A DNA stretch of 64,000 nucleotides from an uncultured Gammaproteobacteria bacterium (GTDB lineage Bacteria; Patescibacteriota; Microgenomatia; Levybacterales; UBA12049). Below, piece after piece: positions 2,524-6,113 of this stretch. The DNA is taken from assembly GCA_964571255.1 (NCBI GenBank), contig CAZNAA010000001.1, forward strand, positions 620,666-684,665, read 5' to 3'. Position 1 is the stretch's first letter, and every line of letters begins with the position of its first letter. The position numbers were made by a program, and so were the translations under genes. The notes below the pieces were generated by a model. The model did not search any database, was not told the DNA's origin, and saw only the letters and a list, made by a program, of their open reading frames with translations.

Positions 2524-2554
2524 TGAGAAGGTAGGTTTTTGAGCAGATCCCCCT

Positions 2555-2595
2555 AAATACACAAAAAGGTAAGGGAAAGAGAAGATCTCCCTTAC
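2555..2595 (-). terminator. Hairpin + U-tract in rpoB 5' leader (attenuator-like): GTAAGGGA-N11-TCCCTTAC then CTTTTTGTGTATTT on minus strand
   Basis: 8-bp GC-containing stem (2569-2576/2588-2595) followed on minus strand by T-run (2555-2568), located between putative promoter and rpoB ATG. Confidence 0.4.
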
Positions 2596-2621
2596 TTATC
2601 TTGAAATTAAAGGTAAATATA

Positions 2622-2651
2622 TGTATACCACACCAAGTAATTCCCTGTCAA
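2622..2651 (-). promoter_or_regulatory. sigma70-like promoter upstream of rpoB: TTGACA(2646-2651)-N18-TATACA(2622-2627)
   Basis: Consensus -35 hexamer and 4/6 -10 on minus strand, ~95 nt upstream of rpoB ATG. Confidence 0.4.
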
Positions 2652-2661
2652 TAGGCAAGGG

Positions 2662-3153
2662 TTACTGGCGGTATTTAGCAGGAAGCTTAGAAGGACGAGA
2701 AATTCGCTTCGCTCGTGGCTCAAGGACTCGTTGTGCAATAAGCCTTCTGATAAATTCTGTGGTTAAATAAATATCTAACCCTATATCTGCACTTATTTGT
2801 TCGATAGGCCAATTTAAATCTCTTAGTTCAATAATTCGTCCATTCCATTTTTTGAACAGGTTTTCACTTTCTCCTCGAGTAAGGTATTTTCTTCGAGGGG
2901 TTGTTTCTGGCTTCCTATTTATACCTTTCTGACGATGAAGTCTTTCTACTTCAGTTTCCACAACCTCAAACGGTAGAGAAAGAATTTTTGCAATCTCCCC
3001 AGCAGTTTGTCCAAACGATAGATATGTTGGTATATCTCTAATGATTCCATCGCGTCTGATACGTTCATAAGGAGAAAGATTCCTACTAGTACGTGGAAGA
3101 GCATAGAGAAACTTCGAATCCCCCCCAAAATTACTTAATTCTTGCTCTGACAT
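2662..3153 (-). CDS. Hypothetical tandem helix-turn-helix protein, paralog A (163 aa), basic C-terminal tail
   Basis: ORF; two HTH-like segments (GQTAGEIAKILSLPFEVV ; RIIELRDLNWPIEQISADIGLD); ~35% identity to 3638-4156 product. Confidence 0.6.
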   Translation of the reverse strand: MSEQELSNFGGDSKFLYALPRTSRNLSPYERIRRDGIIRDIPTYLSFGQTAGEIAKILSLPFEVVETEVERLHRQKGINRKPETTPRRKYLTRGESENLFKKWNGRIIELRDLNWPIEQISADIGLDIYLTTEFIRRLIAQRVLEPRAKRISRPSKLPAKYRQ

Positions 3154-3186
3154 AAGAGCAGTATTATATCATTTATTTCGCCCCAG

Positions 3187-3405
3187 CTATCTTTGGCCAC
3201 TTACTTTTCCACTGAGCTGTCTGATTTCGCCTTCTGATATCAATATTCTAATTAACCTTTTAGTCATACTACGACTCAAACCTGTAGCTAGAGAAATCTG
3301 GTAAACAGTCTTTCTTTCATTTCTAAGCGCAATCATTCGAGCTCTATGTTTTTTAAGCAACTTTTTTATAGGAGGTTCTGCTATTTCTTTCAGATATTGC
3401 TCCAC
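3187..3405 (-). CDS. Hypothetical HTH protein, short paralog B (72 aa); possibly 3' half of a disrupted gene 3187-3600
   Basis: RMIALRNERKTVYQISLATGLSRSMTKRLIRILISEGEIRQ aligns to second HTH of paralogs A/C; GTG start; in-frame 53-aa ORF (3442-3600) separated only by one TAA (3439-3441). Confidence 0.45.
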   Translation of the reverse strand: MEQYLKEIAEPPIKKLLKKHRARMIALRNERKTVYQISLATGLSRSMTKRLIRILISEGEIRQLSGKVSGQR

Positions 3406-3637
3406 CTCTTTAATAGGAAGCGTGAGAAGCAGTGCTATTTACTTAACTGAGACACCGCTATCATCAAGGGTCGTTATGTATGTTCGTGCTACTTTTCTTC
3501 TGCTTATCTCATCCGCAGCAGTATAGATTACTTGAGTTGGTAAAATAGGGTAATCTTTAGGATTTGGATCTCTGGCTCTTTCGCACTTAAATTTGGTCAT
3601 GGGTGTAGTTTGGATTATTTACTCTAAGCTAAAATAA

Positions 3638-4156
3638 TTACTGTTTACCTCTATATTTTATGGGTCGTTTAGAACGGCCATTATAAACTTGTCTTTTTCT
3701 ACGAGCGATTTCTCCTTCTTCTAATAATTTAGCTAACAGTAAATGAATAGATGACATGTCTAATCCTGTATCCTCACAGATTGCTTGAGCAGTCCATTCT
3801 TTATCTCTTAACTCAATTAGTCTTACTCTGAAGCGATCTAACAATGCTTTAGTCATTTCTGGAGATATAGGGGCTCTATGTCTCACTTCTTTTGGTCTTA
3901 GATTGTTAATACTAATATACTGAGATACTAATGCAACTGGGAGGGAAAGTGTTCTAGCAATAGCTTCATCTGTTAAGCCATTACTGACGTGAAGAGGGAT
4001 TTTTTCTTTCATCAGCTCTCGACGAGCCCGCTCATCAGGAGTTACCTCTCTTCGAGTAGGACGTCGGGGAGTTTGTCTATAGAAAGAACCTCCAGTAAGT
4101 TCTGCACTCATTTTTTTTTGAAAATCATCACCAGACCCTTCCCCCTCTTTAATCAT
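3638..4156 (-). CDS. Hypothetical tandem helix-turn-helix protein, paralog C (~172 aa)
   Basis: ORF; GLTDEAIARTLSLPVALV and RLIELRDKEWTAQAICEDTGLD motifs; start ATG 4156 (MIKEGEG) preceded by TATAAT(4164-4169). Confidence 0.6.
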   Translation of the reverse strand: MIKEGEGSGDDFQKKMSAELTGGSFYRQTPRRPTRREVTPDERARRELMKEKIPLHVSNGLTDEAIARTLSLPVALVSQYISINNLRPKEVRHRAPISPEMTKALLDRFRVRLIELRDKEWTAQAICEDTGLDMSSIHLLLAKLLEEGEIARRKRQVYNGRSKRPIKYRGKQ

Positions 4157-4163
4157 GTGCACT

Positions 4164-4169
4164 ATTATA
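4164..4169 (-). promoter_or_regulatory. -10 element TATAAT 7 nt upstream of ATG 4156 (leaderless-type)
   Basis: minus-strand gtgTATAATagtgcacATG. Confidence 0.4.
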
Positions 4170-4196
4170 CACCTCTTTCAGCTTCGATTAACTTCC

Positions 4197-4205
4197 TGCT
4201 ATAAT
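4197..4205 (+). promoter_or_regulatory. extended -10 TGcTATAAT 6 nt upstream of alaS ATG 4212 (leaderless-type)
   Basis: ccTGcTATAATacgcctATG; divergent from the 4164-4169 element. Confidence 0.5.
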
Positions 4206-4211
4206 ACGCCT

Positions 4212-6113
4212 ATGTTAACTGCAGCTGAAATTATTCAAAGATATATTACCTTTTTTGAAAAAAGAGGACATAAGAGGATTGCAAATGCTCCACTTGTTCC
4301 CCAGAATGATCCCACTACTCTTTTTACCTCAAGTGGAATGCAACCTCTTGTCCCGTATCTTTTAGGAGAAGTGCATCCCCAAGGGACAAGACTGGTTAAT
4401 GCTCAGAACTCCTTTAGAGCAAATGACTTTGATGAGATAGGTGATAACAGACATACCACTTTTTTTAGAATGCTAGGCAACTGGAGCCTAGGAGACTATT
4501 TCAAACAAGAACAAATTCCCTGGTTTTTAGAATTTCTTACTCATAAAGCTGAAGGATTAGGCCTTGATCCTAAAAACATCTATGTAACTGTTTTTTCAGG
4601 AGACAGCGCAAATAATATTCCCAAAGACACCGAATCTGCTGAGATTTGGAAAAAGTTGTTTCAAGAATCAGGAATAGAAGCAAAAGAAGTAGAACTTATT
4701 ACTGAAGAAGAGGGAGCAAAAAAGGGAATGCAAGGTGGAAAGATCTTTTACTACAACGCGAAAAAGAACTGGTGGTCAAGAAGTGGGACACCTGAAAATA
4801 TGCCAGCAGGAGAACCAGGTGGACCAGATACGGAAATGTTTTATGATTTTGGAACTCCCCATGATCCATCTTATGGAGAAAACTGTCATCCAAACTGTGA
4901 CTGTGGCCGGTTTATTGAACTAGGTAACTCTGTTTTCATGCAATATATTAAAAATGCTGACGGAACGTTTTCTCTTCTTCCTAAACAAAATGTCGACTAC
5001 GGAGGAGGACTGGAAAGAATTCACGCTGCAGTTAACAATGTGGCAGATGTCTATCGCACAAACCTTTTCTATCCAATCATTCAAACAATAGAAACACTTT
5101 CTGGCACAACCTATGAAAAAAATCCAAAAGACATGAGAATGATTGTTGGTCATTTGAGTGCAGCCTGTTTTATTATTAATGCTGGTATCTCCCCTTCCAA
5201 TACAGATCAGGGATATATCCTTCGCCGCTCTATTAGACGAGCAATGGATAGTACTCACTCTCTTCACTTAATAGATATTGAGCCTATTATTCAAACACTT
5301 GTTGATCAGTACCAAGAGACTGACCCAGAGTTAGTTGAGAACTTTGAAGTAATTAAAAATACCATTCTTGAAGAAAGTACAACATATAATAAAGCGCTTG
5401 ACTCTGCTAAGAAAAGTATTGAGAAAGAGATTAAAGAGAAAGGCATAAAAATAGGAGACGAACTCATGGGACTTACAGAAATCCCAGCAGAACTCGCTTT
5501 CAAATCCACTGCCTCATACGGCCTTGGCCCAACTCAGTTGAAAAGTCTTGGATACATTTTTGATGAACAAGCTTTTGCAGAGGAGATGAAAAAACATCAA
5601 GAGGTATCCAGGGCTGGAGCTGAGCGCAAATTCAAAGGAGGATTAGCAGATCATGAGGAAAAAACGATTCATGGACATACGGCAACACATTTGCTTCATA
5701 AATCTCTTCGAGACGTATTGGGAACACAAGTTCACCAAACAGGATCAAATATTACAACTGAGCGAGTCCGGTTTGACTTTAGTCACACCGATAAACTAAG
5801 CGATGAACAGCTAAAAACTGTTGAAGATACAGTCAATGAAAAGATCAAAGAAAACTTACCAGTCCATTTTGAGATTATTCCAACTAAAAAAGCCTATGAA
5901 TTAGGTGCTATTGGCTTATTTATGGATACATACGGAGATAGTTCTAAAATTTATTTCATCGGAGATACGTCAGAATCCTACACAAATGCCTATTCTATTG
6001 AATTTTGTGGAGGACCACACGTCGATTTTACAGGAGAGTTAAAATCCTTTAAGATAATAAAGCAGGAGAACCTTGGAAAAAATCAAAGAAGGATCTATGC
6101 TGTTGTTGGATAG
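4212..6113 (+). CDS. alaS: Alanine--tRNA ligase, short form (~634 aa; catalytic + tRNA recognition + editing HxxxH region, no C-Ala domain)
   Basis: MLTAAEIIQRYITFFEKRGH..., TLFTSSGMQ class II motif, FRMLGNWS, editing-domain HGHTATHLLH; ORF-track start 4155 includes the promoter and is probably wrong. Confidence 0.9.
   Translation: MLTAAEIIQRYITFFEKRGHKRIANAPLVPQNDPTTLFTSSGMQPLVPYLLGEVHPQGTRLVNAQNSFRANDFDEIGDNRHTTFFRMLGNWSLGDYFKQEQIPWFLEFLTHKAEGLGLDPKNIYVTVFSGDSANNIPKDTESAEIWKKLFQESGIEAKEVELITEEEGAKKGMQGGKIFYYNAKKNWWSRSGTPENMPAGEPGGPDTEMFYDFGTPHDPSYGENCHPNCDCGRFIELGNSVFMQYIKNADGTFSLLPKQNVDYGGGLERIHAAVNNVADVYRTNLFYPIIQTIETLSGTTYEKNPKDMRMIVGHLSAACFIINAGISPSNTDQGYILRRSIRRAMDSTHSLHLIDIEPIIQTLVDQYQETDPELVENFEVIKNTILEESTTYNKALDSAKKSIEKEIKEKGIKIGDELMGLTEIPAELAFKSTASYGLGPTQLKSLGYIFDEQAFAEEMKKHQEVSRAGAERKFKGGLADHEEKTIHGHTATHLLHKSLRDVLGTQVHQTGSNITTERVRFDFSHTDKLSDEQLKTVEDTVNEKIKENLPVHFEIIPTKKAYELGAIGLFMDTYGDSSKIYFIGDTSESYTNAYSIEFCGGPHVDFTGELKSFKIIKQENLGKNQRRIYAVVG

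What the first reader, a model, noticed from the sequence alone, without database searches (positions are those of the whole stretch)
2662..4156. Three paralogous small tandem-HTH proteins in place of rplJ/rplL upstream of rpoB; the middle copy is split by a single in-frame TAA
Products of 2662-3153 and 3638-4156 align over two HTH-like segments plus a basic K/R tail (about 35% identity). The short middle gene 3187-3405 matches their second half. Upstream of it, and in the same frame, an additional 53-aa ORF (3442-3600) is separated only by TAA at 3439-3441. This fits a disrupted third paralog, stop-codon readthrough or recoding. The family is not one I can name. Its fixed position directly upstream of rpoB hints at an RNAP-associated or nucleoid role.
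Basis: seen in the sequence. Interest (0 to 1): 0.55.

Follow-up and report, generated by a model that had tools for sequence, protein, structure and literature searches.

The report
Orphan tandem-HTH gene array beside rpoB
Three related small DNA-binding-type genes, found only in one narrow branch of the Levybacteria (tiny uncultured bacteria), lie between alaS and rpoB; the middle one carries a recent ordinary nonsense mutation, and nothing ties them to RNA polymerase beyond being its neighbour.

Summary
On the minus strand, 4156-3638 (172 aa), 3600-3187 (137 codons with one in-frame TAA at 3441-3439) and 3153-2662 (163 aa) are paralogs (BLASTP 2e-15 and 9e-12). Each has two three-helix HTH modules, and the two outer copies also have basic tails.

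The TAA is a plain nonsense mutation. The one intact ortholog, in a sister metagenome, has CAA (Gln) at that codon and is the same length. TAA is the commonest terminator in this window and ends the two other paralogs. The stop is identical in the two other run assemblies that reach it. dN/dS is 0.29 on both sides of it, so the lesion is young or tolerated.

No Pfam or NCBIfam model reaches its cut-off and no fold match is specific. An exhaustive search of 1.84 billion proteins found full-length relatives only in about six close genomes, always between alaS and rpoB, in 1-3 copies, with chimeras recombined at the inter-domain linker.

The RNAP inference is weak. In 80 other Levybacteria the divergent alaS/rpoB pair is ancestral. 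The gap there is empty (150-300 bp) or holds unrelated genes, rplJ/rplL are never present, and rpoB keeps its own promoter and leader hairpin.

Best reading: an orphan family of bipartite-HTH DNA-binding proteins, probably local regulators. Interest is low.

The parts
3638..4156 (-). Copy 3, distal from rpoB: 172 aa plus a TAA stop. It has a disordered basic N-terminal arm, HTH module 1, a basic linker, HTH module 2 and a basic tail (...SKRPIKYRGKQ).
   Evidence: ORF listed. An exact match (P0001) is held by NCBI and Logan. AlphaFold2 model. Scores 205 bits against the family HMM.
3442..3600 (-). Middle copy, N-terminal fragment (53 codons). It ends inside HTH module 1.
   Evidence: It aligns to family-HMM positions 1-54 (E=2e-14). 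It is orthologous to the start of L003:389-802.
3439..3441 (-). In-frame TAA. It replaces the CAA (Gln) codon of the intact ortholog, a single C-to-T change.
   Evidence: DNA alignment with L003. The codon is identical in the two Logan run assemblies that reach it, L004 and L005; L006 matches the locus but its contig ends just short of the codon.
3187..3438 (-). Middle copy, C-terminal in-frame continuation (83 codons plus TAG). The listed 72-aa ORF starts at GTG 3405. It holds the end of module 1 and all of HTH module 2, and it lacks the KLP basic tail.
   Evidence: Family-HMM positions 57-155, E=1.5e-24. dN/dS is 0.31 against the ortholog.
2662..3153 (-). Copy 1, proximal to rpoB: 163 aa plus a TAA stop. 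The tail reads ...SKLPAKYRQ.
   Evidence: Its C-terminal half is 83-96% identical to the C-terminal half of the single or proximal copy in sister genomes beyond alignment column 120.
4164..4171 (-). TGTATAAT, a -10-like element 7 nt before the ATG of copy 3, with no Shine-Dalgarno sequence. This is an inferred promoter giving a leaderless mRNA.
   Evidence: The same element sits 7-9 nt before the start codon of family genes in L001, L003, L008, L009 and L011. A TA-like signal about 10 bp upstream of the start codon is the published signature of leaderless genes (PMC3160421).
3163..3171 (-). TGATATAAT, an extended -10-like element 9 nt before the ATG of copy 1. This is an inferred second promoter inside the array.
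   Evidence: It is conserved as TGGTATAAT in L003.
4197..4214 (+). The alaS promoter-like element TGCTATAAT (4197-4205) and the likely true alaS start ATG at 4212. It lies back-to-back with the copy 3 promoter in a 55-bp divergent region.
   Evidence: tblastn alignments of alaS begin at MLTAAEII.
2622..2651 (-). rpoB's own promoter: TTGACA (2651-2646), an 18-nt spacer, then TATACA (2627-2622). It begins 10 nt after the stop codon of copy 1.
   Evidence: It is conserved in Levybacteria that lack the family (L013, L018, L019, L021).
2569..2595 (-). rpoB leader hairpin (GTAAGGGAGA...TCCCTTAC) followed by CTTTTTGTGT. It is terminator- or attenuator-like and belongs to rpoB rather than to the family.

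Best explanation
This is a tandem array of three paralogous genes for small (about 140-175 aa) DNA-binding proteins of an unnamed, lineage-restricted family.

Anatomy. Each protein has two tri-helical HTH modules of the HTH_23 / sigma-region-4 / LuxR type. The outer copies also carry a disordered basic N-terminal arm, a basic linker between the modules and a basic C-terminal tail (K-L/R-P-x3-R-R/Q).

Origin. The family arose in, or was acquired by, one sub-clade of Candidatus Levybacteria. It sits in the divergent alaS/rpoB intergenic gap, which is a hot spot for insertions in this phylum. It has since been duplicated, deleted and recombined at the inter-domain linker. Copy number is 1-3, and the single or proximal copies in sister genomes are chimeras.

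Inferred mechanism. The two HTH modules bind adjacent major-groove sites, and the basic linker and arms contact the backbone or minor groove, as in paired/Tc1-type bipartite domains. The proteins would then act as sequence-specific regulators or architectural proteins, probably autoregulating their own back-to-back promoters.

Expression, inferred. Copies 3 and 1 are each transcribed from their own extended -10 promoter as leaderless mRNAs.

The middle copy. In this genome it has a young CAA-to-TAA nonsense mutation. It is a fresh pseudogene or, at best, yields a single-HTH C-terminal fragment.

Shown versus inferred. Shown: paralogy, HTH architecture, restricted distribution, synteny, mosaicism, the nature of the stop, and purifying selection. 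Inferred: DNA binding, the targets, and the promoters with leaderless expression.
For: - Paralogy.
- Distant relatives: the weaker hits of the exhaustive search, as far as checked (8 of them), are poly-HTH repeat proteins that score strongly on generic HTH Pfam families.
- Distribution: full-length relatives are only P0002, P0003, P0007, P0008, P0009, P0011 and P0075. Every one lies between alaS and rpoB wherever the contig reaches those genes. None occurs upstream of rpoB in 80 GTDB Levybacteria.
- Selection: dN/dS is 0.15-0.39 against 0.04 for rpoB.
- Mosaic: the L001 single copy and the L003 proximal copy are 79-90% identical to copy 3 over most of the N-terminal half (66-76% over the first 30 columns) and 83-96% identical to copy 1 over most of the C-terminal half (60-73% just after the linker), at dS 0.2-0.37.
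- The stop: the ortholog has CAA and the same 414-nt length. dN/dS is 0.27 before the stop and 0.31 after it. TAA is the main terminator in the window.
- Promoters: TGnTATAAT lies 7-9 nt before the start codon in most family genes across loci, and at alaS plus five other window genes.
Against: - No DNA-binding data exist and no operator was found. The only nearby inverted repeat (4176-4192 / 4214-4230) is not conserved in L008, L009 or L011.
- The structure model is of moderate confidence (pLDDT 70, pTM 0.35, only 5 sequences in the alignment), so the relative arrangement of the two modules is unknown.
- HTH modules can also mediate protein-protein contacts, as sigma region 4 and GcrA do, so an RNAP-directed role is not excluded.
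- The family is retained in all six sampled genomes of the clade, always at this one site. That is compatible with a local function tied to the alaS or rpoB promoters, although it is also what short divergence times predict.
Confidence: 0.65

Rival explanations
1. The proteins are RNA-polymerase-associated factors, comparable to a GcrA-like or sigma-region-4-like accessory subunit, or dedicated regulators of rpoBC. On this view their position next to rpoB is functional.
For: - The genes are always adjacent to rpoB in the clade that has them.
- Five of 11 members give weak Sigma70_r4_2 hits.
- The stop codon of copy 1 lies only 10 nt from the -35 element of rpoB.
Against: - Synteny holds only over a narrow clade. 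Of 80 other Levybacteria, including the closest one (L013, empty 249-bp gap), none has the family.
- The same gap holds unrelated cargo elsewhere.
- The rpoB promoter and leader are conserved independently of the family.
- Sigma70_r4_2 scores about 15 bits against a cut-off of 25.7, and no GcrA Pfam hit appears even at E<=10.
- The family evolves about 7 times faster than rpoB by dN/dS, which is unlike a core RNAP partner.
Confidence: 0.12
2. The middle gene is still in use despite the TAA. Either it works as two pieces, with the C-terminal single-HTH fragment re-initiated at GTG 3405 or another near-cognate start, or low-level readthrough yields the full-length protein.
For: - There is only one lesion: no frameshift and no second stop over 414 nt.
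- dN/dS is 0.31 downstream of the stop, the same as upstream of it.
- GTG 3405 is preceded by AAAGAG, and the 72-aa product would contain a complete HTH module 2.
- The stop is present in the other run assemblies of this genome that reach the codon (L004, L005).
Against: - A pairwise dN/dS of 0.29 is also what a very recent pseudogene gives, because most of the divergence predates the mutation.
- HTH module 1 is cut in half by the stop.
- The intact ortholog has a sense codon (CAA), so the stop is not conserved.
- TAA-A is an ordinary terminator context, and TAA is the major stop codon here.
- The AAAGAG-GTG motif is also present in the intact ortholog, as AAAGTGGTG, so it is coding sequence rather than a new ribosome-binding site.
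Confidence: 0.15
3. The TAA is a sequencing or assembly error and the gene is intact in the organism.
For: A single-base difference (C versus T) separates it from the intact ortholog.
Against: - The same base appears in the NCBI genome record and in the two separately assembled Logan runs that reach the codon (SRR8893623, SRR8893624). A third run (SRR8893621) matches the locus up to the end of its contig, which stops short of the codon. There are no mismatches over the 761-1701 nt compared.
- The site is not in a homopolymer run.
- Caveat: the runs may come from one sample series, so they show that the base is real in that population, not that it is fixed in the species.
Confidence: 0.03
4. 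The family is a domesticated or remnant DNA-binding domain of a transposase or phage protein (a bipartite paired/Tc1/IS21-type HTH) that landed in an insertion hot spot. It would have no host function beyond its own persistence.
For: - There are weak profile hits to the IS21 IstA N-terminal HTH (E=0.01) and the Sleeping Beauty PAI subdomain (E=0.04).
- PHROG 3855, 'HTH DNA binding protein', matches 8 of 11 members (best E=2e-6).
- The alaS-rpoB gap accumulates varied cargo across Levybacteria.
Against: - No catalytic domain, terminal repeats or integrase lie nearby.
- There are no other copies in the 64-kb window, and every member found sits at this one site.
- No relatives were found in IMG/VR.
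- Purifying selection (dN/dS 0.15-0.39) has held across genomes whose rpoB is 78-98% identical.
- All of the structural matches are statistically generic.
Confidence: 0.1

Closest known systems
Generic tri-helical HTH domains of the Pfam HTH clan (HTH_23 PF13384, Sigma70_r4_2 PF08281, GerE/LuxR PF00196, HTH_24 PF13412, HTH_IclR PF09339)
   Same: Each module is a helix followed by a helix-turn-helix of about 45 residues, with the pattern hydrophobic-x2-L-x3-G/W-x-[ST]-x2-(E/Q)-I-[AS]-x2-(L/G)-x-(L/I/V). These families give the best sub-threshold hits. The more distant HMMER relatives are poly-HTH proteins that score strongly on exactly these models.
   Different: No window protein reaches any family's gathering cut-off; the best is 19.6-20.4 bits against 22 for HTH_IclR. 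The full-length architecture (basic arm, HTH, basic linker, HTH, KLP-basic tail) matches no Pfam or NCBIfam model. There is no receiver, ligand-binding or sigma region-2 domain.
Bipartite paired-type DNA-binding domains (Pax paired domain; PAI+RED subdomains of Tc1/mariner and Sleeping Beauty transposases; CENP-B N-terminal domain)
   Different: The matches are not significant (Foldseek E=0.1, TM 0.2; profile E=0.04). There is no transposase catalytic domain, and the family is bacterial, free-standing and single-locus. The relative geometry of the two modules is not reliably modelled (pTM 0.35).
GcrA (Caulobacter cell-cycle regulator: an N-terminal HTH-like DNA-binding domain plus a sigma-70-interacting domain)
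   Different: No GcrA Pfam hit appears even at E<=10. The second half of the family is another HTH rather than the GcrA sigma-interacting helical domain. GcrA is alphaproteobacterial or phage-borne. Binding to sigma was not tested.
rplJ-rplL (L10 and L7/L12) upstream of rpoBC in most bacteria
   Same: Only the position: small genes lying immediately 5' of rpoB on the same strand.
   Different: There is no sequence relation. In Levybacteria the ancestral upstream neighbour of rpoB is divergently transcribed alaS, and rplJ/rplL are absent from the 6 kb upstream in 80 of 80 genomes. The family therefore did not replace them.
8VD6, 'CAP repeat'
   Same: It is the best PDB sequence-profile hit (E=3e-14), with repeats of the form ...EEGKTAEEIAEILGLSVDEIKELIG....
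   Different: It is a de novo designed repeat protein from the ProteinGenerator study (PMC12339374), not a natural relative. The hit shows only that the family's modules are close to an idealised HTH consensus.

Membership tests
Sigma-70 region 4 (PF04545 / PF08281) | Score at or above the Pfam gathering cut-off (24.1 / 25.7 bits) | tested here: not met
   The best score for a window protein is 15.4 bits (E=0.015) on module 1 of the middle copy. Five of 11 family members match, with a best E-value of only 0.029.
Sigma-70 family | Presence of region 2 (core binding and -10 recognition) | tested here: not met
   No Sigma70_r2 hit appears at E<=10. The proteins are only 137-172 aa and consist of two HTH modules.
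HTH_23 / homeodomain-like (PF13384) | Score at or above the gathering cut-off of 24.6 bits | tested here: inconclusive
   The window copies score 17.3-17.5 bits, below the cut-off. Five of 11 family members match and the best E-value is 3.9e-05. The distant poly-HTH relatives pass strongly.
LuxR/GerE-type HTH (PF00196) | Pfam gathering score, or a significant match to solved GerE/NarL domains | tested here: not met
   It is not among the Pfam hits for the window proteins. The family profile against PDB gives NarL at E=0.05, GerE at 0.09 and VraR at 0.036.
Paired / Tc1-mariner bipartite HTH domain | Two HTH subdomains joined by a linker, with a significant structural or profile match to PAI+RED | tested here: inconclusive
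   The two-module architecture is present. Foldseek to 6PAX gives E=0.11 and TM 0.20, and the profile hit to the Sleeping Beauty PAI subdomain is E=0.04-0.065.
GcrA (PF07750) | A sequence match to the GcrA model, including the C-terminal sigma-70-interacting domain | tested here: not met
Stop-codon reassignment (TAA read as sense) | TAA is rare or absent as a terminator and occurs in-frame at conserved sense positions in many genes | tested here: not met
   TAA ends 25 of 39 ORFs of at least 200 aa in the window. It also ends copies 1 and 3 themselves.
Programmed stop-codon readthrough or recoding site | The in-frame stop is conserved in orthologs | tested here: not met
   The only ortholog (P0075 / L003:389-802) has CAA at that codon.
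Programmed stop-codon readthrough or recoding site | A full-length product is made | not testable with these tools
   This needs proteomics or ribosome profiling of the source community.
Ribosomal proteins L10 / L7/L12 (rplJ / rplL) | Sequence similarity to L10 or L7/L12 | tested here: not met
   tblastn with E. coli L10 and L7/L12 and B. subtilis L7/L12 (query sequences written from memory) found nothing in the window at E<=1. It also found nothing in the 6 kb upstream of rpoB in 80 Levybacteria at E<=1e-4.
Insertion sequence or transposase remnant | A transposase catalytic domain, terminal inverted repeats, or multiple genomic copies | tested here: not met
   There is no such ORF between alaS and rpoB and no flanking inverted repeats of note. 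There are no other family hits in the window, and every member found is at the same site.

The most novel reading that the evidence does not exclude
The family is a clade-specific, modular promoter-proximal factor. Its two HTH modules recognise separate half-sites at the back-to-back alaS/family promoters and at the rpoB promoter. Recombination between paralogs at the linker, as seen in the A+B chimeras, would re-pair recognition modules and so retune expression of RNA polymerase and alanyl-tRNA synthetase in these reduced genomes. A variant of this reading is that one module contacts sigma or RNAP, as GcrA does.
Probability: 0.08. Interest if true: 0.5.

Novelty: new member of a known kind. 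Interest (0 to 1): 0.2.

Why it matters
There are three modest points.

- The array is a clean natural example of a young orphan DNA-binding family. It grows and shrinks by tandem duplication, and unequal recombination swaps whole HTH modules at the linker.
- It shows that an in-frame stop in a CPR genome should first be checked against orthologs before recoding is invoked.
- It shows that gene order next to rpoB in Levybacteria is not informative. The alaS-rpoB gap is an insertion hot spot, and rpoB has its own promoter and a phylum-wide leader hairpin.

If the proteins did turn out to regulate rpoBC or alaS, that would be of some interest, because few transcription factors are known in genome-reduced Patescibacteria.

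Tried and rejected
- **Pfam, NCBIfam, PHROGs and PADLOC scans**. Only sub-threshold or generic HTH matches appeared. The PADLOC hits are weak (E>=8.8e-5) and go mostly to Csa3, CasR and CARF-type models, which I read as matches to their HTH parts.
- **PDB profile search**. The only strong hit, 8VD6, is a de novo designed repeat protein, so it was discarded as a biological lead.
- **The search for related loci with family alignments.** A6 found no relatives in GTDB genomes or in IMG/VR.
- **Metagenome scan with the rpoB-leader DNA pattern**. All 15 hits were chance matches with no rpoB, alaS or family gene.
- **Remote homologs among the other cargo ORFs in the alaS-rpoB gap.** None of those in the other Levybacteria loci scored better than E=0.03 with --max, and none is full-length. 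By my reading of the sequences, which were not scanned against a family library, they are unrelated proteins.
- **Operator search**. One inverted repeat flanks the alaS -10 element (4176-4192 / 4214-4230). One arm is alaS coding sequence, and the pair is not conserved in L008, L009 or L011, so it was rejected as probable chance.
- **GTG 4162 as the start of copy 3.** It has a Shine-Dalgarno-like GAGGTG 7 nt upstream, but the GTG is not conserved (GCG in L001) whereas ATG 4156 is.
- **Rfam on the whole window.** No match.
Full report
**1. What is in the sequence**

The genes run on the minus strand in this order:
- Copy 3: 4156-3638, 172 aa from the ATG.
- A 37-nt spacer.
- A 53-codon ORF, 3600-3442, ending at TAA 3441-3439.
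- Its in-frame continuation, 3438-3187. ORF finders report this as a 72-aa ORF from GTG 3405.
- A 33-nt spacer.
- Copy 1: 3153-2662, 163 aa.
- 137 nt of non-coding DNA.
- rpoB, from ATG 2524, running off the window.

alaS lies on the plus strand. Its alignments to relatives begin at MLTAAEII (ATG 4212), only 55 nt from the start of copy 3.

Paralogy is significant. Copy 1 versus copy 3 gives E=2e-15 at 30% identity. The fused middle copy versus copy 3 gives E=9e-12 at 35% identity, with the alignment crossing the stop.

**2. The TAA**

A related metagenome contig (L003, ENA ERZ28620071; rpoB 97.6% identical) carries an intact middle copy of exactly the same length, 414 nt. At the codon in question it reads CAA, where the window reads TAA. 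That is a single C-to-T change.

A second database search with the fused protein found only that one ortholog, P0075.

The locus matches three independently assembled Logan runs without a mismatch, and the two whose contigs reach the codon (L004, L005) carry the same TAA, as does the NCBI record this window comes from. It is therefore not an assembler artefact.

TAA terminates 25 of 39 ORFs of at least 200 aa in the window, and it terminates copies 1 and 3 themselves. Codon reassignment is excluded.

Against the ortholog, dS is 0.44, and rpoB gives 0.47. dN/dS is 0.27 before the stop and 0.31 after it. Purifying selection therefore acted over most of the divergence. The mutation is either recent or tolerated. 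It cuts HTH module 1 in half, so the only plausible residual product is a single-HTH C-terminal fragment.

**3. What the proteins are**

No Pfam or NCBIfam model reaches its cut-off. Only generic HTH families appear, at 12-20 bits.

AlphaFold2, run on a 5-sequence alignment, gave pLDDT 70 and pTM 0.35. The model has two helix + helix-turn-helix modules (residues 40-83 and 99-146). Residues 1-33 and the C-terminal roughly 20 residues are disordered.

Fold searches found nothing specific:
- Foldseek against PDB gave nothing below E=0.1. The top hits were Pax paired domains.
- BFVD gave E>=2e-3 with TM about 0.2.

A family profile against PDB sequences hit only 8VD6 strongly. That entry is a de novo designed repeat protein. 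The other hits were IS21 IstA, NarL/GerE and the Sleeping Beauty PAI subdomain at E=0.01-0.1.

Features conserved across the family are as follows:
- an N-terminal P-R ... E-x-x-R-R arm;
- (I/V)-P ... G-L-(S/T)-x-E-x-I-A-x-x-L-x-(L/I)-P in module 1;
- a basic linker;
- R-I-I-E-L-R-x-x-x-W-T ... I-(S/G)-x-D-x-G-L in module 2;
- a K-L-P-x3-R-(R/Q/K) tail.

The middle-copy type lacks the linker and the tail.

**4. Distribution**

An exhaustive HMMER profile search of 1.84 billion cluster representatives found 70 proteins at E<=1e-3. Only P0007, P0008, P0009 and P0011 (158-177 aa) match end to end. Eight of the other hits were scanned against Pfam and all are long poly-HTH repeat proteins that score on generic HTH families; the remaining weaker hits, mostly longer multi-stretch proteins, were not examined.

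Wherever the contig reaches them, the flanking genes of every full-length member are alaS (divergent) and rpoB:
- L008: three copies of 177, 165 and 147 aa; rpoB 93% identical.
- L011 and L012: one copy; rpoB 86% identical.
- L009 and L010: one copy; rpoB 78% identical.
- L001: one copy.
- L003: at least three copies.

rpoB-anchored retrieval from GTDB species genomes returned 80 loci, many of them labelled Candidatus Levybacteria / Levyibacteriota (the rest carry generic or other labels), at 65-76% identity over the 250-aa N-terminal rpoB query. None encodes a family member within 6 kb upstream of rpoB. The result was the same with the HMMER filters off.

In these genomes the divergent alaS/rpoB pair is common. 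The gap is 150-300 bp in 16 of the 39 loci where both gene starts could be placed, including the closest, L013 (249 bp). Elsewhere it is 0.4-5 kb and holds unrelated ORFs.

No L10 or L7/L12 gene lies upstream of rpoB in any of them. 'In place of rplJ/rplL' therefore describes the phylum, not this array. 'Fixed position' reflects one insertion inherited by a shallow clade.

**5. Relation to rpoB**

Ten nucleotides after the stop of copy 1 comes TTGACA (2651-2646), then an 18-nt spacer, then TATACA (2627-2622). Next comes a leader with a GC hairpin (2595-2569) and a T-run, about 45 nt before the rpoB ATG.

The same promoter-hairpin-T-run layout is found in almost all of the 84 Levybacteria rpoB loci inspected. 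The stem sequences differ. rpoB is therefore an independent, phylum-conserved transcription unit, and the array sits upstream of its promoter.

**6. Expression signals (inferred)**

Copies 3 and 1, and most family genes in the other loci, have TG(n)TATAAT 7-9 nt before the ATG and no Shine-Dalgarno sequence. So do alaS and five other long ORFs in the window.

A TA-like box about 10 bp upstream of the start codon is the published signature of leaderless genes (PMC3160421). I infer two promoters in the array, at 4171-4164 and 3171-3163, giving leaderless mRNAs. The middle copy would be co-transcribed with copy 3.

**7. Array dynamics**

The single copy in L001 and the rpoB-proximal copy in L003 are mosaics:
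- Their N-terminal halves are 79-90% identical to window copy 3 over alignment columns 30-90 (66-76% over the first 30 columns), at dS 0.35-0.37.
- Their C-terminal halves are 83-96% identical to window copy 1 beyond column 120 (60-73% in columns 90-120), at dS 0.21-0.34.
- The switch falls at the linker.
- The reciprocal halves are diverged to saturation.

Because the paralogs are far older than the split between these genomes, and L008 also has three copies, the L001 gene is best read as a deletion chimera. Unequal recombination between copy 3 and copy 1 would have produced it.

The history of L003 needs an additional conversion or allelic replacement, which I did not resolve. Its distal copy is saturated against window copy 3 (dS about 2).

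Family dN/dS is 0.15-0.39, against 0.04 for rpoB.

**8. Verdict**

This is a real but ordinary feature. It is an orphan, lineage-restricted family of small bipartite-HTH proteins in a dynamic tandem array at an insertion hot spot. They most likely bind DNA as regulators or architectural proteins. One copy has been freshly inactivated by a CAA-to-TAA mutation.

Nothing found supports recoding. Nothing beyond adjacency supports a link to RNA polymerase.

No operator could be identified. No functional data exist. The mechanism is therefore inferred from the fold class alone.

Noticed in passing
window 2524-2651 (minus strand); also L013-L092 just upstream of rpoB: The rpoB 5' leader carries a GC-rich hairpin (2595-2569) followed by a T-run, downstream of a TTGACA/TATACA promoter. 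The same promoter-hairpin-T5-8 layout, with different stem sequences, occurs in almost all of the 84 Levybacteria rpoB loci inspected. Rfam has no match. It looks like a phylum-wide leader terminator or attenuator for rpoBC.
   Followed up: partly
window 4212(+), 4156(-), 3153(-), 22580(-), 26601(-), 42117(+), 43968(+), 53813(-): TGnTA[TC]AAT lies 6-10 nt before the ATG of eight ORFs of 89 aa or more, with no Shine-Dalgarno sequence. This suggests that leaderless mRNAs from extended -10 promoters are common for first genes in this genome.
   Followed up: partly
L013-L092, between alaS and rpoB: The divergent alaS/rpoB intergenic gap is an insertion hot spot across Levybacteria. It is empty (150-300 bp) in many genomes and 0.4-5 kb in others, with unrelated ORFs of widely varying size.
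   Followed up: partly
L001 8034-9945: In the sister contig, alaS is split into 469-aa and 140-aa ORFs, and tblastn matches it in two pieces. The contig has only 1.4x coverage, so this is probably an assembly or sequencing error rather than biology.
   Followed up: no
L003 1-378 versus window 3638-4156: The distal family copy in L003 is saturated in synonymous changes against window copy 3 (dS about 2), although the flanking genes differ by dS of about 0.45. This implies allelic replacement or a different paralog at that position in a very close relative.
   Followed up: partly
window 4176-4192 and 4214-4230: A 17-nt inverted repeat (82% complementary, 21 nt apart) brackets the alaS -10 element and start codon. 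One arm is alaS coding sequence, and the pair is not conserved in L008, L009 or L011, so it is probably chance.
   Followed up: yes
P0010, P0012, P0013, P0015, P0016: These are long proteins (437-887 aa) made of 5-10 consecutive HTH modules, with no other recognisable domain. They are the nearest relatives of the family's module outside its own clade. Their biology is unknown to me.
   Followed up: no
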